Below, in pieces: positions 12,823 to 56,013 of a stretch of DNA of 64,000 nucleotides; the first letter of the stretch is position 1, and each line of letters starts with the position of its first letter. The DNA is from Lytechinus pictus. Taxonomy: Eukaryota. The position numbers were made by a program, and so were the translations under genes. A model generated the notes under the pieces. That model was not told where the DNA came from. It ran no database searches and saw only the letters and a program-made list of their open reading frames with translations. The stretch spans positions 31,374,001 to 31,438,000 of the forward strand of contig NC_087245.1 in the NCBI RefSeq assembly GCF_037042905.1. The letters run 5' to 3'.

Positions 12823-12833
12823 ATGGCGAACGG
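12823..12833 (+). CDS. Copy B candidate first coding exon (MANG)
   Basis: acaATGG Kozak-like context; ATG GCG AAC GG|GTATGT gives the phase 2 required by the TM exon. Confidence 0.55.
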
Positions 12834-18800: not shown

Positions 18801-21800
18801 TATTAAAACGCCATACAAATTCTTTAGCATCGTTCGAAAATTATTTTTTATTTATACTTCATGTATATATTACATAGTATTTATTCTATCATATTCGTAT
18901 TTATTTGTATTATTGCTCACAGGCTATTTGAATACTCAAAAGCTGATAAAATGGCAATATAACATAATTATCAGCACACCATTTTGTCAATGTAATGGCA
19001 AAGTGAATTGTACGTCAATTTTTGGGTGAAATCGACAGTTATTTAATCTTGTATGTTACTCTTATCATTTTTTCCTTACTGACTTTCAAGTACACAGTGA
19101 ACGAAAAAGTTACTGCGGGTGTTGCTGCCGAAGATGCTACTATCACTATTACCGTTGTCATTTTGTTGTTAAATACAATTATATTGTCTATAATAGGTGT
19201 CACAAGCTTAATTGCAACAAGAAGGCAAAAAGTATTAATTCGACCAAACACATACGTGGAGCGTTGTGGCCCAGTGGATTAGTCTTCGGACTTTGAAACA
19301 GAGGGTCGTGGGTTCGAATCCCAGCCATAGCGTAATTTCCTTCAGCAAGAAATTGATCCACAGTTTGCTGCACTCAACCCAGGTGAGGTAAATGGGTACC
19401 GGTAGGAAGTAATTCCTTAAAAAGCTGTGTGCGCTATGAACGCCTAGCTTAGCCGGGTAATATAGGAGCGCCTTCAGCACCTAGCAAGGTGGATATGTGC
19501 GCAATATAAATACCCTATATTATTATTATACCAAGGATTTGTATTTTGACATAGCTGATTGACAAAAATTAGGCCTATAGGCCTATACATATGCTTAGCC
19601 ATCTAACATTGATTCTAAGAAGGGCATTCACTTCACTTTCTTAGTCCAAATGTTGAAGAAATATCATTTAACTTTTGGAACTATTCGACTGGAGGAAGTG
19701 ATAAGGGTTATCTAATTCTTTCAGTAGATGTTTTCATACATGTTGAACTATTTCAAAAATTAAGCGGTCAACGTACCCTTTGATGATCACATATGAAATC
19801 TCAGATATATGTCCTGTATTCCGGTCGTAAACAAGTAATTAGTTATAAGATTTTGTTGTGTTTACTGCCATCCATAGGCGGCGGAAGCGGGAGAGACGGG
19901 GGGACCTGTCCCCCTAAATTTGAGATGGGGGGACGATCCCCCCTTAATTTGGTTTATAACCTTTTTTTTTTTTTTTGCTTGTCACTTTTTGTTCCTGCGT
20001 CCCCCCTAAATTCCGGTGGACCCCCCTAAAATGTTTATGATCCCCCCTAAAATTTAGGTTGATAACCTATTTTTTTTGGCAAAAGATTGTGGTGGTCCCC
20101 CCTAAAAAATTTGGCTCCCGCCGCCAATGCTGCCATCCAACACGCGTTTTTACTGATGAAATATTTACAGGTGTGACACCTTTTCACAATGAAATACCAA
20201 TAATATGGCACTATCATTGTACACGTTAGCACATTAGTTGAATTACATACAATTATAATAGTCTAATATTTCCCCCTCCCTCTCTCTCTCTTTTCCACAG
20301 AGCTTTCCAGACAAGGTAAATTGAAATCACTTCCAAGTAGGCCTATATTACTTTTGGCTAATTTTTGCATATTTGCATTATGGGACAGAAGTATATAATC
20401 AAACTGTGTCATTGTTGTATGATGTCAATCGCTGACATTTCGGGGTATTTATTTTTGCAATTCAAGAATGATAAGAAATGTTTATATAAATCAAATTTTG
20501 TTTAATCAAGAAGAACAGTTTCCCATACAACAGCTAGCCTATTGTGTAGACTGACTTCTTACAAAGCTTAAATTGATAAGAGAAATCGAATAGTAGTTGA
20601 TTCTTTTTCAGACAAACTGAATAGAATACAAACTTAGATGTAGTTTTAAAAGAATTCTTGTACTAATGCACGAAATTCCATTAATTCTATATTTGTTAGA
20701 AATCAGACGAAGTGACCAATACGTTTAGAGGGAATTTGACCAAAATAATAGGCACTTAAAATTGAGGATTAATTGGCACATATTGATATATTTTAAGATT
20801 ATTGATTCTAATTTTTTTACTGTACGGGACGGCATTAGGATGGCCTGTAACAAAGTAACATGTGTTTACTACGTAATAACAACCTATAGAAGTAGGAAAG
20901 AAATATAACTCGAGGAACAAATACGTTTCTGTTGATGAAATTTGGCGCAATGAATAAGTAGTTAATTCCACAGCAGGATATCAGTGTTTTACTTCGGACA
21001 TGTCGGGTGTATGGAGCAATAGATACTGTGGGTAGGTATGAGCTAGTAGAAAATGTAGTTTAGTTTGACGGTTTATAGATGTATCTGTAACAACTGATTC
21101 ATTTGTTCTCTTATTACCCTTATTATTATTATTATTATTGTCATTAGGAGGTAAAGGTATGGTCAATAAGACGGAAACGACGGAGTCAATGACCACGACT
21201 ACCTCTACGCCAATGACTACCCCCGAACGTATGTACTGCGTCTCTTACTTTACCAATATTGCTTGAATATGTGTTTTTAATCTGTTGTATCCTTTACCCC
21301 CTACTAATCTCTTAGTTTGGAATAAGCACTGTTTGCCACAGGCCTATAGATGTGTAGAGTATGAAAGGGGATCCCAACCTTGGTCATAAAATGTTGTGCG
21401 GGAAGGAGAACAATAAGTAAAACAGAATGGTGAAAGTTTAAAAGAAATCGGACAAGCAATAAGAAAGTTATGGCTGTTTTAAAATTGAGATGCAAATTTT
21501 TAAATTGATAACTGGGTTAGTAAATTATGACAATCGGCAGGGACAATTTCCCCAATGGGCCATGGACTTAATTATCAGGGATTTGTGATTTCTTCCCAAT
21601 TAACTATTCCCCCTGGGGCAGTAATGAAAATACAACACAGGTACCATAATTGTTTAATGTCCTCATGAAAGAAAAATGTAACCCAGGTAGCATAATTGTG
21701 TAATGTCCCCATGAAAGAAAAATATAATTTAAAGTAATTCATTTTGAAAAAAAAAGTCATTTTAGCCATTATTTGGTTTGGGGTACATGGAAGGTAAGTC

Positions 21801-24800
21801 CTTCCCTTAATATCAATATGACATCACAAATGCGGCCCATTTGAAGTCTCCATAGTGATCGCCAATTTTTATAACTTTTGAAAATTTCTTTTTGCTTGTC
21901 CGATATTGTTCAAACATTCACCTATCAGTATGTCTGATTTTTCTTTTTCCTCTAAAACAACTTTTTATTTGGGCTGGATTCCCATTTAAGAATGGTGAGC
22001 TTAGCTAGATTGCTCTTCATTTTGTGTATTAGTGTGTATTGTATTTCTTTACATGATTATGAATTTTCCTGCATGATAAGGTCTCATTTGCATTAATTAT
22101 TTTGTATTGACATAATCAACATTTGTCATCGTATTCATCTACATTTGTTTTCATAATTACATTATTGTGCTTGCTGCATTTGTAATTGTAATTCATTTAA
22201 TTTTCATGTAGATTATTATTCTAATTTCATAGTGTACTTGCTTTTTACATTCATCTTTTTGTATGCATGTTTGCATTTTGTATTTGCATTTGTATTTGCA
22301 AATGTATTTGCAATTGCACTTAAGTTTGTATTTGCATAATGTGCTCTTACATTTGCATTTTGCATATGTATTTGCATATGTTGCATTTATGTATTTGCAT
22401 TTGCGTTTCTGTGTTTGAATTTGCGTATGCATTGCATTTCGTGCTTGTATTGTTAATTGTGTTTGCTTTTGTATTTGCATTTACATTTCATTAATATATG
22501 AATTTAAATTTTGCCTTTTTTTGCATTTGTCTTTTTAAAATGCTTGTTGGCTTTTTATTACGACGATAACATCGGAGATGACCACCACATTTATGGATAC
22601 CACAGTGGATATTATCACTCCATAACGTAGGTATATTTTGCACTTATACCAGCAATAATTTTTTTCAGGTTATTCGAATCTTTTAGACGAATATAGACGT
22701 GCATGCTTATTTATTACTACCTTGATAGTGATATCCTTTTCATTCATTCATTTATTCATTCATTCATTCACTCACTCACTCATTCATTAATTTATCGATT
22801 CATTTGTTTTTTTGTCACATTTATTATGTATTCATTTATATATCCATGCCAGTGAACAATTATCTCATTCGAAGCTTTTAGCTGTAGATGCTCTTACATA
22901 TATATTTCAACTTTATAATATCTTATTTCAATGATCACTATCATGGACAATGGCCATTTGTAGGATTTTTTTTGGGGGAGGCAAATTTCCGCAAAATGTT
23001 CCAGAAAACCGAGAGAGGGAGAGAAGCAACCGAGCTTCTTTTTAATAACAAATTGATGGCCCTAGTACACACTTTGTGTAGAATCTGAGTGAACTATCAA
23101 TAAAATTAGGGGTTTTGAAGACTTTTGTTGGTGTCACGGGAAATAGCCCGTCAGTGCGAAGCGGACTGCCGTGCATTCTGTAAATTCTGTTTTGACAAAT
23201 AGATTTGGCCTCTCCTTTTATAATTGTATATTTTGGGGGTATATGGTCGCACAGGAATGGAGAATGGACTACTCATAATTCAATAGACCTATAGAGTCAG
23301 GTCATTGCACAAGTACAGAAAATGAATAACAACATCGTTAAACACACAAAACGCCCTCGCGTAACAAACTTCCACAACCTATGAGAAATATCTCCACCGG
23401 TTTGGGCAGTGCTACATGGGGATGTGCGGACCCCCCCCCTCTCAGATTGATTTTAAGGTAGTCGGGAAATAAGCCTTGAGAAAGAAGGGAAAGGGAGAAA
23501 GAAGAAGAAGAATAAAGAAGAAGAAGAAGGAGGAGAAGAAGAATAAGAAGAAGAAGGAGAAGAAGTAAGATGAGGTAAGAAAGAAAAATGATGAATGTAA
23601 TAAAACGAAGTCTTTGTCATACCCCTATGACCTCCCGTCCCCCCAAAAAAACAAGACGTCGACTTTACGTTGTCACCTCCCCCCCCCCCTCCTATCAAAA
23701 TATCTTTGCGTCAACCTAGGTACTGTTGTTCTCCCAAGTATTTTTTTTGTCATATGATATAATATCGAACACCTCCAAAATATTCGTATAAGTCCAAGTT
23801 GGGGGTAACCTAGTCTACAAATGTAGACCACATCTGCAGTGTGTACCACAGCTGATTCAACGAGTCTGCATAGCAGACTAGGTCTACTCTGGCTGCATCG
23901 CTCGCCCATTCAGGCTGGTTTGTTTCGCGAACCAGCAGCAGCGCGCTTCGCGCGCAGAGATCCCACCTCACGAGCCATTCAGAGTCTGCATAGCAGACTA
24001 GGGGTAACCAGGGGCTGATATTATTTTGTTAGACTATCGAAATCTACTTGTACCATTCTCATTTACTTTATCGCTTTATGATCGTGTGTACCTATGTTGT
24101 TGTTTCTACAATATCTATTTAAATGCCAGTGTCTTCAGAATTATCCAGAATTTTCTGTCTTACAATTTTCCTTATTCTATTTGTTTGTAGATATAGTCAT
24201 AGGGTCCTTTTTCCCCGTGATCTTTTAAGTTTATACATGGATGAATGTGTCAAGTATTTGCCTATTATAGCAGAAATGATTTTTTTTCAGCCAGACTTTA
24301 GTTGTTTTTTTTAATTTCCCAAATCCTAAAACAATTTAGGTAATTTGTTTGGAAAGTTATTGTTTTCACCCTGATCGAATTAAAATTGTATAAAATTATG
24401 TGACTACATATGATTTTGATTTCTTTTTCTTATATTTTCTGCATTTTGTAAGTTTCTGGGACTGAATAAAAACTTTGACAGGTATTTCTTAATGTTTGAA
24501 GTTCAAAAGGATTTTCTAAGTAAATTATTTCAAGCTGTAATTATAATGATGATTGTTTGGCATCTTATAATTTGAAGTGATTGTTATCATCATTGTGATT
24601 TGTAAGGGTTCAAGCATTTATCATTGATAATTTTTCTGATATCTCTGATACTTTTAATCAATGTTGAATTACATTCTTTTTCAAATACAGCTTGCTTGAT
24701 GCCACAGAATGTTTCCGTTGGTAAGTTAAATGTTTTTGTCTGTACCTGGCAAGCAAACTTTCATAATTATCATGTAACGTTGATTGGATTTTGTATTCTT

Positions 24801-39800: not shown

Positions 39801-39876
39801 GGTATTTTATATATTATGTGAGGATAAAGAATATGAGTAGTATAGTAAAAGGAATAGTAGTAGTAGTAGTAGCAGC

Positions 39877-42163: not shown

Positions 42164-42202
<39 letters not shown>

Positions 42203-42265
42203 ATAATAATGATATAGTAATTGTACATTTATATAGCGCAATTTCTATATGTATTTATATGTATA

Positions 42266-42301
<36 letters not shown>

Positions 42302-42469: not shown

Positions 42470-42507
<38 letters not shown>

Positions 42508-42569
42508 TAGTAGTAGTATTAGTAGTAGTAGTAGTATTAGTAGTAGTGGTAGTAGTAGTAGTAGTAGTG

Positions 42570-42606
<37 letters not shown>

Positions 42607-42781
42607 AAGTATTAGTAGTATAAGTAGTAGTAGTAATAATGATATAGTAATTGTACATTTATATAGCGCAATTTCTATATGTATTTATATGTATATAGTA
42701 GTAGGAGTAGTAGTAGTAGTAGTAGTGATATTAGTTGTAGTAGTATGTTACAGTAGTGTATTAGTAGTTGTAGTAGTAGTG

Positions 42782-42815
<34 letters not shown>

Positions 42816-42829
42816 AAGTATTAGTAGTA

Positions 42830-42904
<75 letters not shown>

Positions 42905-43327
42905 ATAGTAGTAGTAGAAGTATTAGTAGTATAAGTAGTAGTAGTAATAATGATATAGTAATTGTACATTTATATAGCGCACTTTCTATATGTATTTATA
43001 TGTATATAGTAGTAGGAGTAGTAGTAGTAGTAGTAGTGATATTAGTTGTAGTAGTATGTTACAGTAGTGTATTAGTAGTTGTAGTAGTAGTGGTAGTAGT
43101 AGTAGTAGTAGTAGTAGAGTAGTAGTAGTAGCAGCAGCAGTAGTAGTAGTAGTAGTAGTAGTAGAAGTAGTAGTAGTAGTAGTAGTAGTAATAATGATAT
43201 AGTAATTGTACATTTATAGCGCAATTTCTATATGTATTTATATGTATATAGTAGTAGTAGTAGTATTAGTAGTATAGTAGTAGTAGTAGTAGTAGTAGTG
43301 GTAGTAGTGGTAGTAGTGGTAGTAGTA

Positions 43328-43359
<32 letters not shown>

Positions 43360-43618
43360 GTTAGTAGTTGTAGGAGTAGTAGTAGTAGTGTTAATAGTAG
43401 TAGAAGTGGTAGTAGTAGAAGAAGTGGTAGTAGTAATAATAATGATATAGTAATTGTACATTTATATAGCGCAATTTCTATATGTATTTATATGTATATA
43501 GTAGTAGTAGTAGTATAGTAGTAGTAGTAGTAGTAGTAGTAGTATAGTAGTAGTATTAGTAGTAGTAATAGTAGTAGTAGTAGTAGTAGTGGTAGTAGTG
43601 GTAGTAGTGGTAGTTGTG

Positions 43619-43659
<41 letters not shown>

Positions 43660-43820
43660 GTTAGTAGTAGTAGAAGTGGTAGTAGTAGAAGTAGTAGTAG
43701 TAGTAATAATAATGATATAGTAATTGTACATTTATATAGCGCAATTTCTATATGTATTTATATGTATATAGTAGTAGTAGTATAGTAGTAGTAGTAGTAG
43801 TAGTAGTATAGTAGTAGTAT

Positions 43821-43853
<33 letters not shown>

Positions 43854-43885
43854 TAGTGGTAGTAGTGGTAGTTGTGGTAGTAGTG

Positions 43886-43921
<36 letters not shown>

Positions 43922-43942
43922 GTGTTAGTAGTAGTAGAAGTG

Positions 43943-43981
<39 letters not shown>

Positions 43982-44044
43982 ATAATAATGATATAGTAAT
44001 TGTACATTTATATAGCGCAATTTCTATATGTATTTATATGTATA

Positions 44045-44080
<36 letters not shown>

Positions 44081-47000
44081 TAGTGGTAGTAGTGGTAGTA
44101 GTAGTAGTTGTAGTAGTAGCAGTAGTAGTAGGTAGTAGTGGTAGTAGTAGTAGTAGTAGTAGTCGTAGAAGTAATGATATAGTAATTGTACATTTATATA
44201 GCGCAATTTCTATCTGTATATTTTCAACTGCGCATTACAATAATATTATTATCATTACCCCGGCTATAGCCATGCTGCCTACAGGTGCTCTGGCATTCGA
44301 GGAATTTCTTTCTTCCTCGAAAAAGCACAATTTGGGTAAATTTCTTGCTGAAGGAAAACACACCATGGTTGGGAATCGAACCCACGTCCCTCAGATTGAA
44401 AGACGAGAGTCTAGACCACGACGCCCCCGTCGTCGTCGTAGTAGTAGTAGTAGTAGTAGTAGAAGTATAGTGCCCAAATTGGGTCTCCATAATCACAAAT
44501 TTAAACGTGAGTTCAGAATACGGGCCATTCCGGTACCACTCTACAGCGCGTTCCAAAATATGTCGTTCTGACATAGGGCTGAATTAATTCTAAAATGTGG
44601 TAGTATTCTCAAATAAATGTTCATGAGTAGAAAGCTCATTTCATGATCTAACTTCTATGAAAATTACATTGGAATGGGCTGAAAAGCACCACTGTAACAT
44701 AATAGACTGTATTCAAAACCACTGAAGCGAGACCAATGAAATTTTATAGAAGTTTGAACATGAGATGAGCTTCCTATATCTATACATTTCATTGAGAATA
44801 ATTCTTATTTTTAGAAGTAATTTAGCCGCATATCAGAGGGACATTTTTTGGGGGGACGCGCTGTATGTTAAATAATAGTGAAATGGAATGATATTTTTTC
44901 TAATATATTTTGTTTGTATACATCACAGTGTGTCATGATAACGCATTTGATTGTGGCAATCATCAGTGTATACCAGCTTCTTGGGAGTGCAATGGAATCT
45001 CTGACTGCTATGACGGGCAAGACGAAGATAATTGCCGTAAGTTTTCAGGAGCATAATACACTCTTCAAAATGTTGGGCAACATACTTACTGTCAACACAA
45101 CATTTGGTTAAAACTTTATCCAATTCTGGGTAGTTTTAAACCAATAATGTGTGCTTTTGGCGAAAACTACACAGTATTGGTTGAAAACTACCCAGACATG
45201 GATAATTTTTTTAACCAATTGTTGTATGGACAGTATGTTGTCCAGCATTTTAAGAGTGTAAAGAAGAGATGTCGAAAAAAGACAAGAGAAAAGAGGACGG
45301 TTACTTCGATCAGCGCATGTTTTGGTCCTCATAAAATTGAAGAAAAAAATATCATGTGATATTTCTTATCTTTTTGCAACCTATGGCATGTTTCGAAATT
45401 CATTATCAGCAAATACGTATCAGATATTTGTGCTGAAAAATGTGTAATATTAATAGATGATGGTTATCAGTATGGACGTAAAACTGCGATGCTTACATAT
45501 ATGTGCTAAATATTACTTTTACGACATCTATCCTTGCCTGTTTTCAATGGGCATAGTTTTTTTATCTTGGTAAAATTGTTTAATATGCTAATTCCATGTT
45601 TATACATGCCAGTGTATAGCCGTAAACAATTTAATCAATCACTAGATTTATGTCTCATGTTATTCCCGTGTAAGCCATGTATACCTGATTAATTTACATT
45701 TATACACTTATCTCATTAAAAAAAAACTCCCTTTAAGCAGTTCTACCAACCTTATTTGCATCATTATTTTTTTTCTCCTTATTCCGGCACAGTTATATAT
45801 TATCTTCAAGTCTTTAAAGAAATACCATTTGTTTATAATTTCTGTTTTTTATTTTACTCATGCAAGCAAATGAATTACTGACTTTATCCCCACAGAATCA
45901 TATTCTGGTTACAAATATCCAAGATTACTGTTATCCCATGTATATAATTATTCTACTCTACTCTTTTTTTTTTTTTCAACATATAACATTGATTATATTA
46001 CTTTCACATGTCATTTTGTTATGATCATTGATATTGTATATATTTTGTATTTTAACTTGTAAAGAATTTCGCAATTCAGCCTTCGGCTGCGATGAAGTGT
46101 TCTTGATAACCCATTCCAATTTCATTTCCAATTATCATGTAGCACCACCGGAACCATGTGAGGAGGGCGAGTTCCAGTGCGAGGACGGAACGTGTCTGCG
46201 CCAGGCCCTGGTATGTGACGACGTAGAACAATGCGAGTACGGTGAAGACGAAAATGCAACACTCTGCGGCAGAGGTATTAAACCTTTAATTTACCTTTAA
46301 TTGACCTTGAATTTATCTTGAATATACATTGAATTTACCTTGAATTTGTCATGAATTTACCTTGCATCTACCTTAATTTTACCTTGAAATTACCTTAATT
46401 CACCAGTAATGTACCTTAATTTTACCTTGGTTTATATTGAATTTACCTTGAAATTGATTTGAATTTACTTTGAATTTACTTTCAATTTACCTTGAATATA
46501 CTTTGAATTCACCTTGATTTTGCCTTGATTTTTTATTTACCTTACATTTACCTTGATTTCTTTTTAATTTACCCTGAAATTACCTTAAAATTACCTTGAA
46601 ATCACCTTGCATTTACCTTGAATCTACCATAAATTTACCCTAAGTCTTTCTTGAATTCACTTTTAAATTTATTTTGGATCTACCCTGAATTTACCCGGAA
46701 TTAACCTTGAACCTATTATTGAATTACCTTGTCATATTACAACTTATTTCATTCACGTACATTGTAGTAATATCCAAAATTACAATTTGTATGTAAATTT
46801 CTTATGTGTAAAAGTAAAAGAGGAGGAAACATCTCTGTATATGTATATTTTATTATACGCTACACTAACATAATTGCATCGAATTCTGGTTCATGTCCAT
46901 TAATTTTACTTAACTTTTTTCACAATATAGGCAATACTACTTTACTCGTTAAACTCGTTAAAGTTTCATTAACCCCCCCCCCCTGTTTCCACACTCTATC

Positions 47001-50000
47001 CAACTTATTTTTATATCCTAGATGAGGAAGATTCTGATTGTTACGAGTGTGGAGACGGGTCTGATTGTATCCCTTGGGATTGGATATGTGACGACTACGC
47101 TGATTGCGCTAATGCAGAAGACGAGGAGGACTGTGCAGAAGAAGGTAAGGGTTAAATAGTGGCAGAAATCATGGGCGGGTCCAGGAGGGGGGCACATTTT
47201 CCCCGAGGAAAATTTGACAAGCAAAAAAAAAAAAGGTTCTCACTAAAAAAGGAAGGTCATTTTGTCCCACGTACAATTTGACAAGCAAAAAAAAAAGGTC
47301 CTCACCTGTGTATAAACGACATATTCCCATTAAAAATATTTGATGTGACTCTAAAGGGGGCGCACTCGTGTATGATATTGATAATATTGACTCTGAAAGG
47401 GGGCACGGGCTGGATGTGCCCCCCCCCCCATATCCGCCACTGGCAGGAAGATATCAAATTAATCAAATATAGGGCCACTCAAACTAGGGGTTCGCAGAAA
47501 CACCCTTAGAAATGAATAAATAAATAAATATATAAATGAATAAGTACATAAATAAATAAATATATATATAGATAAATAAAATCTATAAAGAAATAAAAGA
47601 AGAAAAGATAACAAATGAATAGATTAAAATACAAATAAGTAATAAAGAAATGAAAAATAAAAATAAAAATAACGATGAGAATAGAGTAAATAAATAAATC
47701 AAGTTAATCTAAGAGAAAAAATAAAAAATGAGATAAATTGAATAAAACTAAATGTTAACCATCTTTGGAATTGATAACCTTTTTCATTCTGTATAAAAAA
47801 TTCTCATGGAGGAAAATCTCAACCAATACTTTTTTTTCTTATCAAATTCATGAGAAGGTAAAGTCGACCATATCTTGAGTTCATAAACTTTTTTTTATCA
47901 CATTGTTGACCCATTCTAAATCAATAGTCGACCCTTTCTAAATAGGTCATAATAGCTCGGAATGTGTTATATGTTTAGTCTGCATATTCAATTCCAAGTC
48001 ATGTAAAAGTGTGAAAAATGAAGTTATAAATATGACGATTAATCATTGGCATGTTTCGTAAACTTTGTCAAGAAGAATAGATTTCTGTAACAAACTTAAG
48101 TACTTTATTATTAATAGACAATGTTCAGTACACCCATATATACATTTTTAATATTCTCATTCGATGTTTTTGTTTGTAAGGTACGTGTATTGAATTTCAT
48201 CTGCAGTATACCAACGTGTGAGAAAACCCTCATTTCTCATATATGTTCCTTATTTTTGTATATCGTCATGAATGAATATGTGAAAGACAAAACAATAATT
48301 ATGTTTCGTCATTCATCTGATGCAGTTTTTCAATTAAGCTCTAGGGCCTTAATCAAATTAGGATTGCAATGCAATTATAATCAGAGTATGGTCGTCTTGA
48401 TCGATGTAATAATATAGTATGAAATTGATAGGCAAACTATTTTTATTCTATTTTTCCAGGGGGGATAAATTATAATATTGAATAGTCTTGCTTTGATATT
48501 TTGAATGTAGCGCGCGCTCTCTCTTTCTCTCTTTGCCTCAATTAATTAACCAAAACGCTTTCTTTTAAACTTTCTTTTCATTTAAATCTTCTCTAAAAGA
48601 GTGTGAGGAGGGGTATTCTCCGTGCCCCGGCCGATCCTGTATTGCAAATAAATACCTCTGTAACGGAATAACTGATTGTCCAGGAGGAGTAGACGAGGTC
48701 AACTGTACAGCCACACCTCCAGGTAATATAACTCCAAGAGGTTTTCATGATAATTCCTTCATCAAAGTTTTTAGTCGTACTTACCTATTCCACAACACAC
48801 ACACACACATGCACACACCCTTACCCACTCACCTACGCCACACACACATGCCCACATAAAAGACAAAAGACGATCATATTTTCTTATATGATAATGAGTA
48901 GGAGTTTATTTTTCATGTTTCCATATAGTGACCCTCCGGAAATTGTATATTTCTGTGCTCTAGTTCATATGAAAATTTGTAATACTTTAAATGGTCTTCA
49001 CTTGGACAATTGACGAAGTGAAATAACAATGAAGAAAGTAGTGGTCAGACCTGCAAAAATGTTGATGGAGTTACCCTACAATTAATACAATATATTGTAT
49101 TGAGTATGCTATATATAAAAAAAAATGATATTTATGAATTTCTACTAAATTTCATCAAACCTATAGATCTATGTGTATCCATCAACGGCTCGGAATACTT
49201 TGTGTGTGATGGTAAAGAGGACTGCCCCGGAGGAACAGATGAATCACGACCTGAGTGCAGTGAGTAAATGTACCTTAACTTGTCATATATGTATATTGTT
49301 GGTTGATCGATTGATTGATGGAGGGATCAAGAAAAATGAACACAATAAATGAGAAAGAAAAAAAACAAATCACTTAAAAATTAAAACAAGAGCATTCATG
49401 GAAGTTTCAGAAACATATCTGTGTGAGAGAAGTCAAATTGCAGCGGGGTTTTTTTAATGAATTTAGATTTTATTCATTTCCAATCAACAAAATAGACAAA
49501 ATACAATCGAAGTAACAGTACATATTCAAAATAACACTGACAGTTCAATGATATATACATAAAAATATTGAAAATAATTAAACAGATTCTAGAGTGAGCT
49601 GCAATTTATTTTTGGCTAGAAAAAGTATGTGGAACTGAACGGAGGGAGAAAAGCAAGTCCCTAAACTTAGTTTTAATACTTGATTAACAAAACTATATAC
49701 AATAATGGAGACGGTCGGAAGACGAGCTTAAGACAAGTAAACTACAAAATATCAAAGTAAAGCGAATAAGCGACGACACAATTAAGATGAAATAATTTAG
49801 ACAATAATTATCACAATTAATGTATGCTAATATTAATGTATGATATGATATAATGTAAGTAGAGTGTAACATGGAAGAAAATATTTTAGTTTGTTGATAA
49901 TTCAGATTTTTCTTGAAATTATTTTGCATATATTATCGATATGTGGTTTCCATGATAGTTTATTGCAATAAGAACACCCAATAATCTGGTATCAGAATTT

Positions 50001-53000
50001 TTTTTCAAGAACAGTGTTATAAAAAACAAGATTGTCAGGGAAGGTATGTATTTTGTTACTAAAGAGCATAAAATTCGTCTTTTGCAGGTTAAGTAATAGT
50101 TCATTAGCCTTAATCCAGCCAATCACATGTATGACTTCTGAGTTTATAATTCTTACAAGTTAGTTGGTTTACGTTATCATAAGAAAAGAAATGTTCGAAT
50201 CGTCAGCAAACAGTATGAATGTTAGTAATTTTGAACTTTTTTAATATCATTAATATAAGTAATAAAAAGAAGAGGACCAAGTAAGCCACCCTGTAGTACT
50301 CCACATGTAAAAGGAAGGGTAGAAGAAATAACGTTAACTGATACAAATTCAGACTTGTCTGTAAGGTAGCTCCTGAACCACTTCCCCCGAATACCATAAA
50401 AATAAAGTTTATGAAGAAGTATTTCGTGGTTAATGGTGTCGAAGGCATTGGAGACGTCCAGGAAAAAGTATGACAACCTTTATTTATGAAAGTAGTGATT
50501 TTATCAATAAAAGACAGAATTGCATGTGAGGTGCTATGATTTTCACAAAACCCAAATTGCTAGTTCGAAAAGATATTGTGTTAATTAAAGAATGTACTTG
50601 TCCGTATATATATAAGTTTTTTAAGAATTTTAGATAACGAAGTGAGCAATGAAATAGGCCGGTAGTAAGAAACAAGTTTATTATCCCCTTTTTTTGTTAA
50701 GAGGGATGACTTTGGCTATTTTCATGAGATTAGGTACTTACCTGTGTTCAAAGAACTATTAAATCTATTCACACGACTAATCATCATTTTCTCTCAAATA
50801 AAAGACAGATGATGTTGGATAATGACAAGACAAGATAATTAATTTCTTGATTCATGTGGTTTGTTATTGCAGATTGCGGAACCATTCCTTTGTCTCAGTC
50901 GAGAGTCATCGGTGGTCAAGATTCGAAAAGGGGAAACTGGCCAATGCAAATCTTAATCAGCAGTGAGAACAATTATCAAACATGTAGACTTTGGGTTATA
51001 AAAGTAGAAAAGTTCATGGAGGGGTGTAGATTGCGGACGGGGAATGCCTTTTCCTTGGATTTCAGATGAAAGGTGTTGGATGCCACGTGTAGATGTGTAA
51101 TAGCTCAGTGGGCAAGTCACCGGAGTTTGAACCACGAGGTCCGGGGTTCAAACCCCACCACGGCACTCACGTCTTTTGTCAATGCGTTTATGTACATTTG
51201 CCACTTTCCACCAATTTGTAGGAATTCCTTACATGTGCCAGGGTAGCTTGCAGCGTTTAGAAACATTGTTTTAAGCGCTATGTAAATGTTGCATATTATC
51301 ATTCTGACTATTACTATTGATATTATTATTATAATTATCATTATTATTAAGTGATATTTTATCACAAATATGTTCACATTTGTATTATCATTTGCATGAG
51401 ATGGAGTCCCCAGTCCCCGGCGATACTGAAAGCGTAAAAATTTATTATAATTCGGGAAGAACACAGAATTCACAGAATTTCACGGAAAACACATTGTTCT
51501 GGCTTAGTGAGTTGAATTTTAAAAAATAACATCGAAAATCATGGGGAAAAAAAATTGCATGATTAAAGAATCTTTCTATCAAACCTCTCCTTATTATCTG
51601 CCTTGGCTTTTGCGGATCCAGGATATTCTCCATGGGGGCACTTTGTACAGGAAATTTTTGACCAAAAAAAAAGTCTACTCCAAATGGAGGTCTTTGTTGC
51701 AGGAAAAACTGGACAGGCAAAAAAAGGTCTCCACTACCAAGCGATGTCATTGTGTCCCATGAACAAATTGAGTGCCTCTCAAATGGGGATGGGGGTGGGG
51801 TACGGGCCAGATGCCCCCCCCCCCTGGATCCGTCACTGTTCATAGATACTTTCGTTTTTCTTAGATTTTCAGTACTTACAATATTGCATTATAAAAAAAA
51901 ATCGTTTTGCACATGTCACCAAAGAACATGGAATGCGATGTTAAGAACAGCAAAAAACACCAAATTGGCATTTTAGGAATCCAAAATCTGGGGTCTGGCG
52001 TAAGATTTTAAGTATTAGGTCAATTTAAAAGTCTGACTGTAGGAAATAATTGTTGGTCGATGTCTACGAACTCATTTCATTACCATTGTTGTTTTGATAT
52101 TACTTTATTATCATTATTATTATCATTATTATTATAATAATTATCATTATTATTATTATTATTATTATCAATATTATTATTATTATTATTAGTGTAGTTA
52201 TTAAGATCATAAGTAAGACATTACTATGTTTGTTCATTTTCACCACCCATTCAGCTGAGATTACGTCGGCCAGTCTCTATTGCGCAGGCACTATTCTCAA
52301 CCGTCGTTGGGTAATGACTGCTGCTCACTGTGTGTGAGTATTCCAGAGCCCCGTCTTACAAAGAGTTACGATTGATCCGATCAACCTCATCTATATGGAA
52401 AACCATCAATGTCATAATTTCTACTACAGCGAATTTGCAAAATGTCCTTTATAGATAAAGAGAATAAAGAATTTCCAAGAAAACAATGTATAAATATACA
52501 TAATATCTGGATTTTTTATATAAAACAAACCAAACATGCAGCTTAGATGTTGACATTGCTGGCTTTCCATAGTTTTGGTTGATCGGATCGATTAGTAACT
52601 CTTTGAAAGACGGGGCCCAAATAGGGAGAAAGGAAGGGAGAGAGTAACAGAAAGAACGAGATAGAGACAGAGAACCATAGATGGAGAGAGAGAGATGAGA
52701 TTTTTTTTTACAATATTTTTTTTTCTTGAAAGACTTGTTTGCATTTCATTCTGTCAATGTTCTAATGTAAATGTATAAAGTGATAGCTGTGTCTTTCTAC
52801 GCACCATAATTATACTGTATCAATAATCATGTGTATTTATCACTTGTATTGGATATTCATTTGCATTGTAATTTTTTGTAATTATTTTATTTAATGTGTA
52901 ATTTGATTTATTATTATTGTTGAGAAATGACAATAAACTTGAACCTTGAATCGCGATGATAGAACGATGAAAGTAAACTGCCATGCAATAGTAATCACAA

Positions 53001-56000
53001 ACCTGGGTTTCAATAATGAAAATATCACAGCGTATATGGTCATAACACAAAATATATAAATATATAATACTAAAATAGGCAGTGTGTACAACATGACAAA
53101 GAAAACATCTGTACGCAATCTACAACAGACAGCATCATTTCGGTCATTTTCATAACCTTATTTTGTCCTGGTAAAGGGATAAATTACTAATATTCGTAAA
53201 ATTTAACATTCTGTTTTAAACTCGTAGGGGGCCAAGTACGGTTGGAAATTTCTACGTCGTCGCGGGTGTGACCGATGTGAATGGAGACAACTCTACCTGG
53301 CAGTTCAGGCTCATCGCTGACGCCGTATGCAATCCCGAGTTCTCCTTCACTACCTTTGTCGGGGGTGACAACTGTCTCTTGCTCATGGATGAACCCTTTG
53401 AGTTCAATGACTACGTGCAGCCGGCCTGCATACCTGGCCCCAACTTTACCCTTGATCATTACGCCACCGCCGTGGGATGGGGACAAACAGGGGGAGGTGA
53501 GAACAGCAACACGTATCTCTGTTTTATGTTGATGTAATCTGTCATCGGGGGGGGGGGGGGGGTCATAAAGCTGTTCATAGTTTAAGAGGGACTTTAAGAA
53601 GACTGTGAACCTTTCTTACGCGCTAACATATTGGTGTATACCATTTACCAAAAGAAAGGATCACCAGTCGTCCTCAAAGTCGCCCTTAACTTACGAACAG
53701 CTTTATGAAAACCCCACCTGGGGTCAATTGCAGTAAGGGTTATGCTCAAACACAAACTCCAAAAGTCAAACGCAACTAGACTTTCAACAAAAGGAATACG
53801 AGTATTAGTAACTTGTGGTTGATTTCTTGACTTGCGTTTTAAGACAACCATTTCTTTAACGGACTCCTGGTCATGTTATATCAGTTTTTAAATGTCAAGT
53901 CCATCCGAAGAAAAAAAAGTTGAGCTGAATGAAAACAGGACAATCTAATCTAGATGAGAAAGTTGTGATATTTCCCACTCTCCCCTCCCCCCCCCCTCTC
54001 TCTCTCTCTCTCTTATTGTCACAAAACCACTTTCTGATGTCATTGTACTTGATGATGAATATAGTCTGTAAATGACCAATATGCAATCGGAGACGAATAT
54101 ATTCACTTGAAAACGAATATACTTTATTGATGACGATCATAATCACTTGATAAATATACTCACTTTGTGACGATTATAATCACTAGATGACAAACATACT
54201 ATCTCTTGGTGACGAATATATTCACTTTATGACGAATATACTCTCTTAGACGAATATACTCACTTGATGACGAATATACTCTCTAGATGACGAATATACT
54301 CTCTTGGTACCGAATATACTCTCTTGGTAACGAATATACTCTCTAGATGACGAATATACTCTCTTGGTGACGAATATACCCTCTTAATGACGAATATACT
54401 CTCTTTTGACGAAAATACTCTATAGATGACGAATATACTATCTAGATGACGAATATACTCTCTTGGTGACGAATATACTCTCTAGATGACGAATATACTC
54501 TCTTGGTGACGAATATACTCTCTAGATGACGAATATACTATCTTGATGACGAATATACCATCTAGATTGCGAATTTATATTCTGGATGACGAATACACTC
54601 TCTTGTTGACAAATCTACTCTCTTGGTGACGAATATACTCTCTAGATAACGAATATACTCTCTTGGCGACGAATATACCATCTAGATTGCGAATTTATTT
54701 TCTGGATGACGAATACACTCTCTTGTTGACAAATCTACTCTCTTGGTGACGAATATACTCTCTAGATAACGAATATACTCTCTTGGTGACGAATATACCA
54801 TCTAGATTGCGAATTTATTTTCTGGATGACGAATACACTCTCTTGTTGACAAATCTACTCTCTTGGTGACGAATGAACTTTCTAGATAACGAATATACTC
54901 TCTTGGTGACGAACATACCATCTAGATTGCGAATTTATTTTCTGGATGACGAATACACTCTCTTGTTGACAAATCTACTCTCTTGGTGACGAATATGCTA
55001 TATTCTCTTCATATACCAGCCTCTCTCTGTTATTTTCGGAGGTCGCAAATTCGAGTCTAAAAATCTTCTACGTTCGTAAATTTATTGATTATGTTAATTT
55101 TCCTAATTATTATTGGGTGATTCATACATGTTCTAATCGTCATTTCTATTTCTTCGAACTATCCCAGGATACACAGCTCCTAATCTTCAGGTGGTCCGCC
55201 TACCCGTTTGGCCAGACAATATTTGTGACAGATATAGTTACTTTGGCAGTGATGATGTTGAAAAAGTAATCTGCATCGGTTACGAGAAGGGAGGCCATGG
55301 ATTATGCTTTGTGAGTATCTAGCGTTTTTGTTGACAAAAAAATCTAGAAACATAATCAAATGAAATAGAGAAGTAAAAAAAACCTGCGTAATCTTAGAAT
55401 CGAATAAATAAATCAATAAAGTTTAGGCCGTAAAATGAAATTACAAACATTATATATTTCATTAAATTTTTCTTAGCTAACAAATATTTTAAGGCTATTG
55501 AATATAAAGTGGATAAAACGCTTATGAATTTTTTAGCGGTATGACTTAGTAGATGTCGAGTGAGCTGCGATTGGCTTACGGTAAACAAAATTAGGCTTGA
55601 CAGCCAATCACAGCTCGTCATTCAGCGACCAATATCTTTTCTGGTATATTATTTCGTGATCTAGCGTTCTATTCACCTATGCCATTTATACTCACGAGTG
55701 TTTATGTTAAAAACCTTCAGTATGTTTGTTTCCAATGCTATTTTTCCGAAATTGCAGCACCAAACACTTATTCATCTGATAGATACAAACGTATGATGCT
55801 AAGGCAAGATTTTTTTCTTCGTTTTCCTTTTCAATTCAGGGCGATTCCGGTGGATCTATTCTCATGGAGAGGGATAATCTCTGGTACGTCGTCGGGACTG
55901 TGTCGGGTGGGAGTGAATGCGGTGCTCCGTTCACACCCAGCGAATGCACAAAAACTTCCTACTATTACCAATTCATCAATGACACCATAAACAATGTCTA

Positions 56001-56013
56001 TCCTGACTATTAA
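12823..56013 (+). CDS. Copy B, complete gene: type II transmembrane serine protease-like protein (TM-mucin-CUB-10xLDLa-S1A protease), about 833 aa, 22 exons
   Basis: join(12823..12833,17885..18018,20301..20315,21148..21228,24691..24720,30757..30909,31617..31811,32483..32605,35226..35330,37053..37148,37830..37940,39688..39801,44929..45036,46143..46274,47022..47144,48600..48722,49167..49259,50873..50962,52255..52333,53228..53496,55168..55310,55840..56013) = 2502 nt, open frame, all GT-AG. The first exon and the micro-exons are the least certain. Confidence 0.85.
13458..13683. mobile_element. MITE with CACTGCAAAAACTC-type TIRs
   Basis: ACTGCAAAAACTCTGGTGTT...AACACCGGAGTTTTTGCAGT, about 50-bp imperfect inverted repeat. 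Confidence 0.75.
14029..16190. repeat. 29-bp satellite array (ACTTACACAACGATGTCATTTACTATGTA), about 70-75 units
   Basis: Period of 29 seen directly; no unique spacers; first unit inverted. Confidence 0.96.
16563..16777. repeat. Three abutting palindromes (160 bp, 42 bp, 18 bp)
   Basis: Centres GTA|TAC at 16642/3 and CCTA|TAGG at 16741/2, then GATATCA-gtat-TGATATC at 16760-16777. Confidence 0.93.
17080..17790. repeat. Foldback-type interspersed repeat (gtcta.. / ..tagac motifs) with a nested MITE at about 17150-17365; related to 35505-35890
   Basis: Short repeated motifs that switch orientation mid-element; nested inverted repeat gtcactctaa..ttagagtgac. Confidence 0.55.
17885..18018 (+). CDS. 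Copy B exon: cytoplasmic tail + signal-anchor helix
   Basis: Polypyrimidine tract + cag; [51 protein letters not shown]. Confidence 0.85.
19256..19529 (+). mobile_element. tRNA-derived SINE
   Basis: A box TGGCCCAGTGG, anticodon-loop remnant CTTTGAA (Gln-like), B box GGTTCGAATCCC, core CTCAACCCAGGTG..AATGGGTACC, (TTA)n tail. Confidence 0.88.
19873..20129. mobile_element. hAT-type MITE
   Basis: CATAGGCGGCGG...CCGCCGCCAATG with perfect 8-bp TSD CTGCCATC. Confidence 0.88.
20301..20315 (+). CDS. Copy B 15-nt micro-exon (ELSRQ)
   Basis: Long (CT)n tract + ccacag|AGCTTTCCAGACAAG|GTAAA; phase 1-1. Confidence 0.6.
21148..21228 (+). CDS. Copy B exon: Thr-rich mucin-like stalk
   Basis: [34 protein letters not shown]; 81 nt, phase 1-1. 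Confidence 0.72.
21365..21989. mobile_element. Probable Kolobok-like non-autonomous element
   Basis: AAAGGGGATCCCAACC...GGGCTGGATTCCCATTTAA degenerate TIRs; TTAA at the right end only. Confidence 0.45.
22230..22530. repeat. Degenerate (TTTGCA/TTTGTA)n hexamer tract
   Basis: Seen directly; explains the CKYK ORF. Confidence 0.8.
22561..22626 (+). pseudogene. Decayed Thr-rich pseudo-exon
   Basis: [20 protein letters not shown]; 66 nt, phase 1-1; donor C|GTAGGT retained; acceptor lacks G; in-frame TAA at 22623. Confidence 0.6.
23811..24000. mobile_element. 190-bp element with TAGTCT...AGACTA termini and 9-bp TSD (AcademH-like by inference)
   Basis: GGGGTAACC at 23802-23810 and 24001-24009; terminal hairpins. 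Confidence 0.75.
24691..24720 (+). CDS. Copy B 30-nt exon ([10 protein letters not shown])
   Basis: tacag| ... G|GTAAGT consensus donor; phase 1-1. Confidence 0.7.
25960..27546 (+). mobile_element. Highly degenerate LINE fragment
   Basis: GTGCCGCAAGGATCCATCTTGGGTCCGATCCTTTTC = [12 protein letters not shown] near 26200; later LKWNDHV..CKKVSK; AATAAA + (ACCAA)n end; boundaries approximate. Confidence 0.65.
26376..26585. mobile_element. MITE nested in the LINE fragment
   Basis: TA-CATTCTTAAAACAAATCAGT...ACTGATTTGTTTTTAGAGTG-TA; inner inverted repeat CAGCTGGGTGCAACTG. Confidence 0.75.
27723..27889. mobile_element. Small hAT-like MITE (related truncated copy at about 31372-31519)
   Basis: CAGGGGCCGCGGAA...TTCCGCGGCCCTTG. 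Confidence 0.65.
28134..30590 (-). mobile_element. PIF/Harbinger DNA transposon, internally deleted
   Basis: TIRs AGCTGTGGTCACATCCCGTCGTAC / AGCCCTGGTCACAAGCCGCCGTAC (19/24); flanks TAA/TAC; GC-rich subterminal regions; HARBI1-like transposase remnants. Confidence 0.9.
28896..29772 (-). pseudogene. Frameshifted HARBI1-like (DDE_Tnp_4-type) transposase
   Basis: [27 protein letters not shown]...[41 protein letters not shown]; at least 2 frameshifts; the GAIDG-type first catalytic segment is missing. Confidence 0.9.
30757..30909 (+). CDS. Copy B exon: CUB domain, N-terminal half
   Basis: [51 protein letters not shown] resembles the CUB pattern SPxyP..APeGxrvxlxFxxF; |GTAAGT. Confidence 0.85.
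31617..31811 (+). CDS. Copy B exon: CUB domain, C-terminal half
   Basis: [72 protein letters not shown]. Confidence 0.85.
32483..32605 (+). CDS. Copy B exon: LDLa1
   Basis: [41 protein letters not shown]. Confidence 0.88.
32959..35093 (+). mobile_element. 2.1-kb non-autonomous TIR element with repeated GCGAGCGCGAAGCGCGAGC motifs
   Basis: CAGGGGCGGATCCAG...CTGGATCCGCCTATG; TAAGA on both flanks; no ORF. Confidence 0.78.
35226..35330 (+). CDS. Copy B exon: LDLa2 (degenerate acidic motif)
   Basis: [42 protein letters not shown]. Confidence 0.85.
36300..36998. mobile_element. Two tandem copies (first partial) of a MITE with TGGACCTAACCCCTTTTGCAA motifs
   Basis: GAAGAG..TTGCAAAAGGGGTTAGGTCCA at about 36663 is inverted relative to TGGACCTAACCCCTTTTTGCAA..CTCTTC at about 36995. 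Confidence 0.6.
37053..37148 (+). CDS. Copy B exon: LDLa3 (4-Cys variant)
   Basis: [32 protein letters not shown]. Confidence 0.88.
37830..37940 (+). CDS. Copy B exon: LDLa4
   Basis: [37 protein letters not shown]. Confidence 0.9.
38386..38642 (+). mobile_element. Second tRNA-derived SINE family
   Basis: TGGTCTAGTGATTAGAGC A box and GAGTTCAAATC B box; A-rich end. Confidence 0.55.
39021..39306 (-). mobile_element. tRNA-derived SINE inserted within a (GAT)n tract (38920-39470)
   Basis: Reverse complement of the 19256 family; (GAT)n on both sides. Confidence 0.85.
39688..39801 (+). CDS. Copy B exon: LDLa5
   Basis: [38 protein letters not shown]. Confidence 0.9.
39836..44215. repeat. 4.4-kb composite array: about 19 constant units of roughly 60 bp separated by variable (AGT)n tracts
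   Basis: Unit AATAATGATATAGTAATTGTACATTTATATAGCGCAATTTCTATATGTATTTATATGTATAT; explains all the poly-T/V/S/Y/L ORFs. Confidence 0.96.
40618..40732. mobile_element. 115-bp palindromic hAT-type MITE
   Basis: CAGTGGCGGACCGTGACCCGGTGGAGACAAAGCAT..ATGCTTTGTCTCCACCGGGTCACGGTACGCTACTG; perfect 8-bp TSD TATATAGT. Confidence 0.92.
44172..44428 (-). mobile_element. tRNA-derived SINE whose 3' end is the array monomer
   Basis: Minus strand GGGGCGTCGTGGTCTAG..GGTTCGATTCCC..CCTTCAGCAAGAAATTTACCC; tail merges into the array unit. Confidence 0.8.
44544..44863. mobile_element. Tc1/mariner-type MITE
   Basis: TA-CAGCGCGTTCC...GGGACGCGCTG-TA; long imperfect inverted repeat. Confidence 0.78.
44929..45036 (+). 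CDS. Copy B exon: LDLa6
   Basis: [36 protein letters not shown]. Confidence 0.9.
45059..45258. mobile_element. MITE with CACTCTT TIRs
   Basis: TA-CACTCTTCAAAATGTTGGGCAACATACT...AGTATGTTGTCCAGCATTTTAAGAGTG-TA. Confidence 0.8.
46143..46274 (+). CDS. Copy B exon: LDLa7
   Basis: [44 protein letters not shown]. Confidence 0.9.
46280..46732. repeat. 11-bp minisatellite (AATTTACCTTG)n
   Basis: Degenerate tandem units starting just after the LDLa7 donor. Confidence 0.88.
47022..47144 (+). CDS. Copy B exon: LDLa8 (very acidic)
   Basis: [41 protein letters not shown]. Confidence 0.9.
47169..47442. mobile_element. hAT-type MITE related to 6232-6495
   Basis: CATGGGCGGGTCCAGG...TATCCGCCACTG. Confidence 0.6.
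48600..48722 (+). CDS. Copy B exon: LDLa9 (must use the distal AG of a former NAGNAG)
   Basis: Exon body identical to 970-1092; proximal TAG has become TAA. Confidence 0.8.
49167..49259 (+). CDS. Copy B exon: LDLa10 (4-Cys variant)
   Basis: [31 protein letters not shown]. Confidence 0.88.
49303..50810 (-). mobile_element. Degenerate LINE fragment, uninterrupted counterpart of 2482-5330
   Basis: [32 protein letters not shown]...[21 protein letters not shown]. Confidence 0.8.
50873..50962 (+). CDS. Copy B exon: activation site
   Basis: [30 protein letters not shown]. Confidence 0.9.
52255..52333 (+). CDS. Copy B exon: catalytic His
   Basis: [27 protein letters not shown]. Confidence 0.93.
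53228..53496 (+). CDS. Copy B exon: catalytic Asp
   Basis: [13 protein letters not shown]...[21 protein letters not shown]...VQPACIP...AVGWGQT. Confidence 0.93.
54090..55000. repeat. 20-bp minisatellite with a 120-bp higher-order repeat
   Basis: Identical text recurs at 54601, 54721, 54841 and 54961. Confidence 0.93.
55168..55310 (+). CDS. Copy B exon: protease 170-192 region
   Basis: [19 protein letters not shown]...[15 protein letters not shown]. Confidence 0.92.
55840..56013 (+). CDS. Copy B terminal exon: catalytic Ser
   Basis: GDSGGSILM...[42 protein letters not shown] at 56011-56013. Confidence 0.93.
   Translation, partial: GDSGGSILMERDNLWYVVGTVSGGSECGAPFTPSECTKTSYYYQFINDTINNVYPDY

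What the first reader, a model, noticed from the sequence alone, without database searches (positions are those of the whole stretch)
12823..56013. Unusual mosaic membrane protease: signal anchor-mucin-CUB-(LDLa)10-serine protease
Seen: 22 phase-compatible exons give an open frame of about 833 aa that the ORF track does not show. Known: vertebrate TTSPs have other stems (matriptase SEA-CUB2-LDLa4; enteropeptidase SEA-LDLa-CUB-MAM-CUB-LDLa-SRCR; corin Fz/LDLa8/SRCR). One CUB followed by ten uninterrupted LDLa modules running directly into the protease matches none of these. Inference: a lineage-specific cell-surface protease family in which a long acidic LDLa array captures ligands or substrates. 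Its role (digestion, fertilisation, matrix, immunity) cannot be read from sequence.
Basis: partly seen in the sequence, partly recalled or inferred. Interest (0 to 1): 0.8.

Follow-up and report, generated by a model that had tools for sequence, protein, structure and literature searches.

The report
Sea urchin ten-LDLa membrane protease
This is a 22-exon sea urchin gene for a predicted membrane-anchored protease with a chain of ten LDL-receptor-type modules, kept in the same pattern in five urchin species; unlike the vertebrate members of its class it lacks the acidic pocket residue and so would likely cut after hydrophobic rather than basic residues.

Summary
22 GT-AG exons give an 833-aa open frame identical to RefSeq XP_063956463.1 (Lytechinus pictus, auto-named 'ST14 homolog'). 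Layout: signal anchor, short Ser/Thr stalk, divergent CUB, ten LDLa modules, S1 protease with His/Asp/Ser intact. It belongs to a small family found only in sea urchins in my searches: 13 full-length proteins from 5 species, three subfamilies, one clade (SH-aLRT 98). All 13 keep ten LDLa modules with cysteine pattern 6,6,4,6,6,6,6,6,6,4. New here: none of the 13 has Asp189 (window: Gly189/Gly216/Ser226), while all have a basic activation site. The enzyme is therefore predicted to be chymotrypsin/elastase-like and to need an upstream trypsin-like activator. A 95%-identical tandem copy ends just upstream. No direct transcript evidence was obtained; activity, tissue and substrate are untested. 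[quoted passage not shown]

The parts
12823..12833 (+). exon 1, ATG (aa 1-4)
   Evidence: matches the start of XP_063956463.1
17885..18018 (+). exon 2: short cytoplasmic tail and signal anchor (aa 23-41)
   Evidence: hydropathy; same segment in 9 of 9 family proteins checked
20301..20315 (+). exon 3, 15-nt micro-exon
21148..21228 (+). exon 4, Ser/Thr-rich stalk (aa 54-80)
22576..22626 (+). dead copy of the optional second Thr-rich exon used by isoform X1 of the paralogs; no AG acceptor in register and an in-frame TAA (ends approximate)
24691..24720 (+). exon 5, carries the first CUB cysteine (C82)
30757..30909 (+). exon 6, CUB first half (C107)
31617..31811 (+). exon 7, CUB second half
   Evidence: Pfam CUB E=0.033
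32483..32605 (+). exon 8, LDLa 1 (6 Cys)
35226..35330 (+). exon 9, LDLa 2 (6 Cys, lacks the usual final Asp-Glu)
37053..37148 (+). exon 10, LDLa 3 (4 Cys)
37830..37940 (+). exon 11, LDLa 4
39688..39801 (+). exon 12, LDLa 5
44929..45036 (+). exon 13, LDLa 6
46143..46274 (+). exon 14, LDLa 7
47022..47144 (+). exon 15, LDLa 8 (most acidic, net -19)
48600..48722 (+). exon 16, LDLa 9
49167..49259 (+). exon 17, LDLa 10 (4 Cys)
50873..50962 (+). exon 18: tether cysteine C584 and activation site R593|V594-I-G-G
52255..52333 (+). exon 19: C42-C58 pair and catalytic His637
53228..53496 (+). exon 20: catalytic Asp686, C706, Lytechinus-only Cys673/Cys688
55168..55310 (+). exon 21: Gly773 at the S1 pocket position 189
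55840..56013 (+). exon 22: catalytic Ser779, Gly215/Gly216/Ser226/Cys228 positions, stop
970..10187 (+). 3' seven exons (LDLa 9, LDLa 10, protease) of an intact tandem paralog, equal to the C-terminus of XP_063956453.1/XP_063956456.1; homology with 47549-57543 includes introns and 3' flank, repeat unit about 45.8 kb

Best explanation
The gene encodes a predicted type II membrane-anchored serine protease zymogen that is likely switched on by a separate trypsin-like protease and would then cut its substrates after hydrophobic residues, with the ten-module LDLa chain likely serving as spacer and docking surface. Steps: (1) shown by sequence: anchor at aa 23-41, CUB, ten LDLa, S1 domain with His637/Asp686/Ser779 and Asp194; (2) inferred from S1-family knowledge: cleavage at R593|V594 activates it and the catalytic chain stays tied by C584-C706; (3) inferred: with Gly at 189, Gly at 216 and Ser at 226 the pocket suits Leu/Met/Phe/Tyr, so it cannot cut its own Arg site and sits as a second step in a cell-surface cascade; (4) inferred, weakest: the calcium-bound acidic array holds the protease away from the membrane and binds basic patches of activator, substrate or inhibitor; the most likely setting is an epithelial surface (gut or body wall), processing apical matrix or zymogens as the matriptase-prostasin pair does.
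For: Model identical to a RefSeq protein and collinear with proteins of four more species. Triad intact in 13 of 13 full-length family proteins; position 189 is Gly (8) or Ser (5), never Asp; 216 is Gly in 13 of 13; 192 is Phe/Tyr in 13 of 13. Numbering of 214-228 rests on a gap-free alignment to TMPRSS11D and prostasin. Activation site follows Arg or Lys in 13 of 13; the SEA-bearing paralog has RQRKRR, a furin-type site (furin motif recalled). The protease domain folds confidently (pLDDT 90, pTM 0.90) and matches enteropeptidase, plasmin, chymotrypsin and elastase chains at TM 0.81-0.87. Ten modules with the same cysteine pattern in 13 of 13, net charge -56 to -79. Between the tandem copies the part outside the N-terminal barrel shows purifying selection (5 amino-acid changes among 13; p=0.003). 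The 189/216/226 rule is stated in PMC10036332 (passage); six human TTSPs prefer P1 Arg (PMC4161349, passages).
Against: No activity, expression or localisation data. The rule quoted names Ser/Thr189, not Gly189; only the SEA-bearing subfamily (Ser189/Gly216/Ala226) fits it exactly, and others have Thr or Asn at 226. The window protein departs from usual active S1 enzymes at several places: Gly for Trp215, GGSI for GGPL, PSECT for PGVYT, a Cys at 228 with no evident partner. A confident fold does not show catalysis. The N-terminal barrel differs between the tandem copies at a neutral-looking rate (18 amino-acid against 4 silent changes, dN 0.072, dS 0.055; p=0.44 against neutrality), which fits relaxed constraint as well as new specificity. 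Type II orientation is inferred from one hydrophobic segment; no topology predictor was run. Nothing here favours an epithelial role over a gamete or immune role.
Confidence: 0.6

Rival explanations
1. It is a catalytically weak or dead protease-like receptor: the LDLa/CUB stem does the work (binding or adhesion) and the protease domain is decaying or serves as a binding domain.
For: Gly for Trp215, degenerate PGVYT motif, unpaired Cys228, neutral-looking change in the N-terminal barrel between the copies; the LDLa array is more conserved than the protease domain across subfamilies (43-61% against 35-46%).
Against: Triad, Asp194 and a basic activation site are kept in 13 of 13 proteins across three subfamilies; Gly/Ser215 is a family-wide trait, not recent decay; confident protease fold.
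Confidence: 0.12
2. It is a membrane-tethered immune initiator that works like insect ModSP/HP14: LDLa repeats bind pattern-recognition proteins, clustering triggers self-activation, and the chymoelastase-like domain starts a cascade.
For: Language-model features of aa 500-833 are nearest to ModSP clusters (0.93, 190 of 256 features). ModSP has LDLa repeats (PMC10036332) and is chymoelastase-like with P1 Leu (PMC10732536, passages).
Against: No CCP/Sushi or Wonton module; there is a membrane anchor and a CUB; the activation site is basic, so a hydrophobic-P1 enzyme could not self-activate as ModSP does. No ModSP sequence was in my tree, so kinship is untested; the atlas hit may reflect only LDLa plus protease.
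Confidence: 0.12
3. It is a gamete-surface or egg-coat protease (sperm lysin or fertilisation-envelope processing enzyme); the biochemistry is as in the best explanation but the setting is fertilisation.
For: Recent tandem duplication in each Lytechinus species and amino-acid changes clustered near substrate-contact loops. Sea urchin egg-coat proteins carry LDLa and CUB arrays, and chymotrypsin-like activity has been tied to sperm penetration (recalled; one search gave listings only).
Against: The family is well conserved for a gamete-recognition protein (90% between Lytechinus species, 67% to Strongylocentrotus, 54% to Diadema); dN does not significantly exceed dS; no expression data.
Confidence: 0.13
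4. The TM/CUB exons and the LDLa/protease exons belong to separate transcripts and the 22-exon model is a fusion artefact.
For: I obtained no read-level evidence for any exon junction; all database proteins are predicted models; older-assembly models P0008 and P0010 lack the N-terminus.
Against: The same continuous order stands in 13 proteins of 5 species; phases match at 21 of 21 junctions; neither half has its own stop or signal peptide in the model.
Confidence: 0.03

Closest known systems
Matriptase subfamily (ST14, TMPRSS6, TMPRSS7)
   Same: Signal anchor, CUB then LDLa run directly before the protease; TMPRSS6 is the best-scoring protease among solved sequences for P0007 (E=8e-33) and for the subfamily-C fragment P0183, helped by its LDLa modules; one family paralog has SEA.
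   Different: One CUB and ten LDLa against two CUB and three LDLa in matriptase-2 (PMC10376093 passage; four in matriptase, recalled); no SEA in this gene; no Asp189; matriptase-2 self-activates. Orthology was not tested: no matriptase sequence was in my tree.
Corin
   Same: Type II anchor and many LDLa repeats (eight; PMC10376093 passage); RefSeq names the upstream paralog corin-like.
   Different: No frizzled or SRCR domain; a CUB instead; non-trypsin S1 pocket.
Enteropeptidase
   Same: Its light chain ranks first in the fold search (TM 0.84-0.86), with no meaningful gap to plasmin, factor XI, chymotrypsinogen or elastase.
   Different: No MAM or SRCR; ten contiguous LDLa; 26-27% identity; cuts after Lys.
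Insect ModSP / HP14
   Same: LDLa run before a chymoelastase-like protease.
   Different: Secreted, 4-7 LDLa plus CCP (and Wonton), self-activating; no anchor, no CUB.
Drosophila Nudel
   Same: Transmembrane protein with many LDLa modules and a protease domain (TM-3LDLA-PD-LDLA-PLD-LDLA; PMC10036332 table).
   Different: LDLa clusters are split around an active and an inactive protease domain; no CUB.
Sea urchin cortical granule protease CGSP1
   Same: Sea urchin S1 protease; LDLa modules before the protease (recalled, not from a call).
   Different: Secreted and trypsin-like with few LDLa (recalled); groups with acrosins (PMC2689223 passage). Not compared by sequence here.

Membership tests
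Type II transmembrane serine proteases (class) | single hydrophobic segment near the N-terminus after a short tail | tested here: met
   aa 23-41, mean hydropathy 3.1; present in 9 of 9 family proteins checked; orientation inferred
Type II transmembrane serine proteases (class) | C-terminal S1 protease domain with His/Asp/Ser triad | tested here: met
   Pfam Trypsin E=3e-39; triad; fold
Type II transmembrane serine proteases (class) | modular stem of SEA/CUB/LDLa/SRCR/Fz/MAM-type domains | tested here: met
   CUB through relatives; ten LDLa
Type II transmembrane serine proteases (class) | basic activation site and tether disulfide between pro and catalytic chain | tested here: met
   R593|V594; C584 and C706 present; the bond itself is inferred
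Type II transmembrane serine proteases (class) | trypsin-like specificity (Asp189, P1 Arg), as described for the human family | tested here: not met
   Gly189 here; Gly or Ser in 13 of 13; specificity itself not assayed
Matriptase subfamily | SEA domain after the anchor | tested here: not met
   no Pfam SEA; no remnant by tblastn with the Diadema SEA region; present in paralogs P0079/P0082
Matriptase subfamily | two CUB plus three or four LDLa | tested here: not met
   one CUB, ten LDLa
Matriptase subfamily | protease domain groups with matriptases in a tree | not tested
   no matriptase sequence among the 68 rows
Corin | two frizzled domains and one SRCR | tested here: not met
   no such Pfam hit at E<=1
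ModSP/HP14 | secreted; LDLa run followed by CCP/Sushi | tested here: not met
   internal anchor; no Sushi hit
ModSP/HP14 | self-activation on pattern recognition | not testable with these tools
   needs biochemistry; the basic activation site argues against
CUB domain (PF00431) | profile match above the curated cut-off | tested here: inconclusive
   not met in this protein; met in P0078, P0177, P0238, P0239, which align to this region at 54%, 28% and 30% for P0078, P0177, P0239; atlas features 0.92 to CUB/LDLa clusters

The most novel reading that the evidence does not exclude
Sea urchins have their own conserved family of membrane-anchored serine proteases with chymotrypsin/elastase-type pockets, built on a fixed ten-module LDLa ruler. 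The furin-site, SEA-bearing paralog and the Arg/Lys-site paralogs act in a cell-surface cascade of a kind not described in vertebrates, and the Lytechinus tandem copies are diverging in the loops that read the substrate around an unchanged S1 pocket.
Probability: 0.35. Interest if true: 0.6.

Novelty: new variant of a known kind. Interest (0 to 1): 0.42.

Why it matters
The human type II transmembrane serine proteases are described as trypsin-like. A family with the same anchor and stem logic but a hydrophobic pocket would widen the class and imply an unknown upstream activator. An array of exactly ten LDLa modules with the same cysteine pattern in three old subfamilies suggests that length or order matters, which is testable by deletion in Lytechinus, a laboratory urchin. 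It also corrects the automatic names (ST14-like, corin-like, LRP1-like) given to near-identical proteins. The limit: shuffled mosaic proteases are common in sea urchins and hemichordates (searches show several), so a new domain order alone is not very surprising.

Tried and rejected
No whole genome is held for this window, so the paralog's 5' part and further copies were judged only from database proteins. No reads were laid on the gene, so no junction is checked at read level. Full-length AlphaFold2 on a 6-row alignment failed (pLDDT 28) and was discarded; the CUB fold therefore has no structural check. Best-local-match mapping of single LDLa modules was in order for P0011 and P0078 but not for P0079, P0177 and P0239, because modules resemble each other; global alignment and cysteine counts settle the order. 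The tree is the quick one; the careful search did not finish, and it held 68 of 321 extracted protease domains, chosen by hand. Positive selection in the N-terminal barrel: not shown (p=0.44); the contrast with the rest (Fisher p=0.024) was chosen after seeing the data. A SEA remnant, an eleventh LDLa exon and a third copy downstream in the window were sought and not found. Literature: 9 full-text searches; one search found 0 papers naming five accessions or locus ids; no listing described this family. Subscription papers and supplementary tables (none read) may list the gene. PMC11312191 (passages) was not relevant. Earlier scan notes: nothing. Absence outside echinoids rests on three word-based searches and one exhaustive search with an 89-aa exon (best 150 of 260 hits seen, 10 looked up by name): weak evidence.
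Full report
Observation. The window is AT-rich animal DNA. Reading the sequence and fixing splice sites gave 22 exons from 12823 to 56013, 2502 nt, 833 aa with no internal stop; 21 of 21 introns are GT-AG and phase-compatible, and every LDLa module sits on its own phase-1 exon. The translation is identical, 833 of 833 residues, to RefSeq XP_063956463.1 of Lytechinus pictus, auto-named 'suppressor of tumorigenicity 14 protein homolog'. That record is a predicted model, so it shows that an annotation pipeline reached the same structure, not that the transcript was seen; I obtained no read-level evidence.

Anatomy. A short tail precedes one hydrophobic segment (aa 23-41). A 27-aa Ser/Thr-rich stalk follows; it is variable: paralog isoforms add a second such exon, which is dead in this gene (about 22576-22626), and the Diadema orthologs lack the stalk. 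The CUB (aa 82-206) is too divergent for Pfam in this protein but aligns with regions that pass the cut-off in four relatives; it does not pass in P0080, P0079 or P0082. Ten LDLa modules follow: 7 of 10 exons pass the Pfam cut-off alone, modules 3 and 10 have four cysteines, and the array has net charge -78. A six-frame scan finds no further module. The protease domain has R593|V594-I-G-G, His637, Asp686, Asp778, Ser779, and folds confidently as an S1 protease (pLDDT 90).

Family. Searches with a protease exon, the protease domain and the CUB region, with name look-ups, gave 13 full-length proteins from L. pictus, L. variegatus, Strongylocentrotus purpuratus, Diadema antillarum and D. setosum (isoforms, older-assembly models and fragments P0002, P0004, P0006, P0008, P0009, P0010, P0092, P0183 left out of that count). 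In a quick maximum-likelihood tree of 68 protease domains the 12 family rows included form one side of a branch with SH-aLRT 98 and fall into three groups: A, the window's orthologs; B, Diadema proteins with TM-SEA-CUB-LDLa10-protease (Pfam SEA E=1e-10); C, Diadema and Strongylocentrotus proteins with a clearer CUB. All 13 have ten modules with cysteine counts 6,6,4,6,6,6,6,6,6,4. Paralogs of one species lie on contigs of equal recorded length in S. purpuratus and D. setosum, and two of them in D. antillarum, which suggests linkage but does not show adjacency. No starfish or sea cucumber member appeared, but the searches were too insensitive to exclude one. The SEA-bearing group suggests that SEA was lost in groups A and C or gained in B; the tree does not order these events.

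Specificity. Position 189 is Gly in 8 and Ser in 5 of 13, never Asp; 216 is Gly in all; 226 is Ser, Gly, Thr, Ala or Asn; 215 is Gly or Ser instead of Trp; 192 is Phe or Tyr. The numbering of 214-228 rests on gap-free alignments to TMPRSS11D and prostasin. By the 189/216/226 rule (PMC10036332, passage) these are chymotrypsin- or elastase-like pockets, although the rule names Ser/Thr189 and not Gly. The human TTSPs are described as trypsin-like (PMC10376093, passages) and six of them prefer P1 Arg (PMC4161349, passages). All 13 activation sites follow Arg or Lys, group B after RQRKRR. The inference is a zymogen that cannot activate itself and needs a trypsin-like or furin-like upstream enzyme. 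Against it: several departures from usual active enzymes (GGSI, PSECT, a Cys at 228 without an evident partner) and no assay.

Tandem copy. Bases 1-11727 repeat 47549-57543 at about 82-93% identity, introns included. The seven exons there are intact and equal the C-terminus of XP_063956453.1; the two proteins are 94.7% identical. Over exons 16-22 dS is 0.058 and dN 0.031. The N-terminal barrel has 18 amino-acid and 4 silent changes, the rest 5 and 8. Counting from C42, H57 and D102, many changes fall near the 37, 60 and 99 loops, while 189, 216 and 226 are unchanged. This is not significant against neutrality (p=0.44) and the split was post hoc (Fisher p=0.024), so it is a lead. The two copies in each Lytechinus species group by species (SH-aLRT 95 and 84): separate duplications or gene conversion.

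Mechanism. Most likely a surface-anchored zymogen, activated by an upstream trypsin-like enzyme, tethered by C584-C706, cutting after hydrophobic residues, with the acidic LDLa chain as spacer and docking surface (confidence 0.6; calcium and lysine binding by LDLa modules is recalled knowledge). I place it on an epithelial surface by analogy with the matriptase-prostasin cascade (PMC6331135, passages), but nothing here tests the tissue. Rivals: inactive receptor (0.12), ModSP-like immune initiator (0.12; nearest atlas clusters; ModSP specificity from PMC10732536, passages), gamete protease (0.13), split gene (0.03).

Comparison and novelty. [quoted passage not shown] Nine full-text searches listed no description of the family, and one search found no paper naming the accessions; subscription papers and supplements were not seen. 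Mosaic proteases with shuffled CUB, LDLa, Fz and SEA modules are common in sea urchins and hemichordates, which lowers the surprise of a new order. What lifts it above routine is the fixed ten-module array and the family-wide non-trypsin pocket. Verdict: new variant of a known kind, interest 0.42.

Noticed in passing
28130-30590 (intron 5), - strand frames 28896-29519 and 29348-29743: Broken PIF/Harbinger-type transposase (Pfam DDE_Tnp_4, E=5e-13 and 8e-5) in a GC-richer block; only short inverted similarity at the presumed ends, no clean terminal repeat found.
   Followed up: partly
58731-59558 (+): Reverse-transcriptase fragment of a LINE-type element (Pfam RVT_1, E=4e-16).
   Followed up: partly
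39836-44173 (intron 12): 4.3 kb of degenerate (AGT)n with internally repeated unique blocks.
   Followed up: no
14066-16191; 54092-54996 and 8630-9167; 46282-46711; 4133-4751: Minisatellites of 29, 20, 11 and about 160 bp units; the 20-bp array differs in length between the two gene copies.
   Followed up: no
12155-12467, 19254-19526, 39090-39421, 58050-58366: Dispersed 200-300 bp repeat, 80-91% alike, in both orientations; looks like a tRNA-derived SINE (type not tested).
   Followed up: no
P0010 (XP_054759668.1) and P0009 against P0007 and P0005: An older-assembly model has paralog-type LDLa 6-8 joined to a window-type protease: a recombinant allele, a third copy or a mis-assembly.
   Followed up: no
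53228-53496 (Cys673, Cys688) and 55840-56013 (Cys812): Three cysteines in the protease domain found only in the four Lytechinus proteins; 673 and 688 may form an extra disulfide next to the catalytic Asp.
   Followed up: partly
P0119, P0093 (L. pictus); P0104 (Saccoglossus); P0194 (Ptychodera); P0197 (Tubulanus): Other large mosaic proteases with two to four protease domains; several domains also lack Asp189 (Ser, Gly or Thr), so non-trypsin pockets recur in invertebrate mosaic proteases.
   Followed up: partly
P0081 (D. antillarum): Group-A member with an N-terminal extension of about 170 aa rich in Pro, Glu and Ala before the anchor, which would be a long cytoplasmic tail.
   Followed up: no
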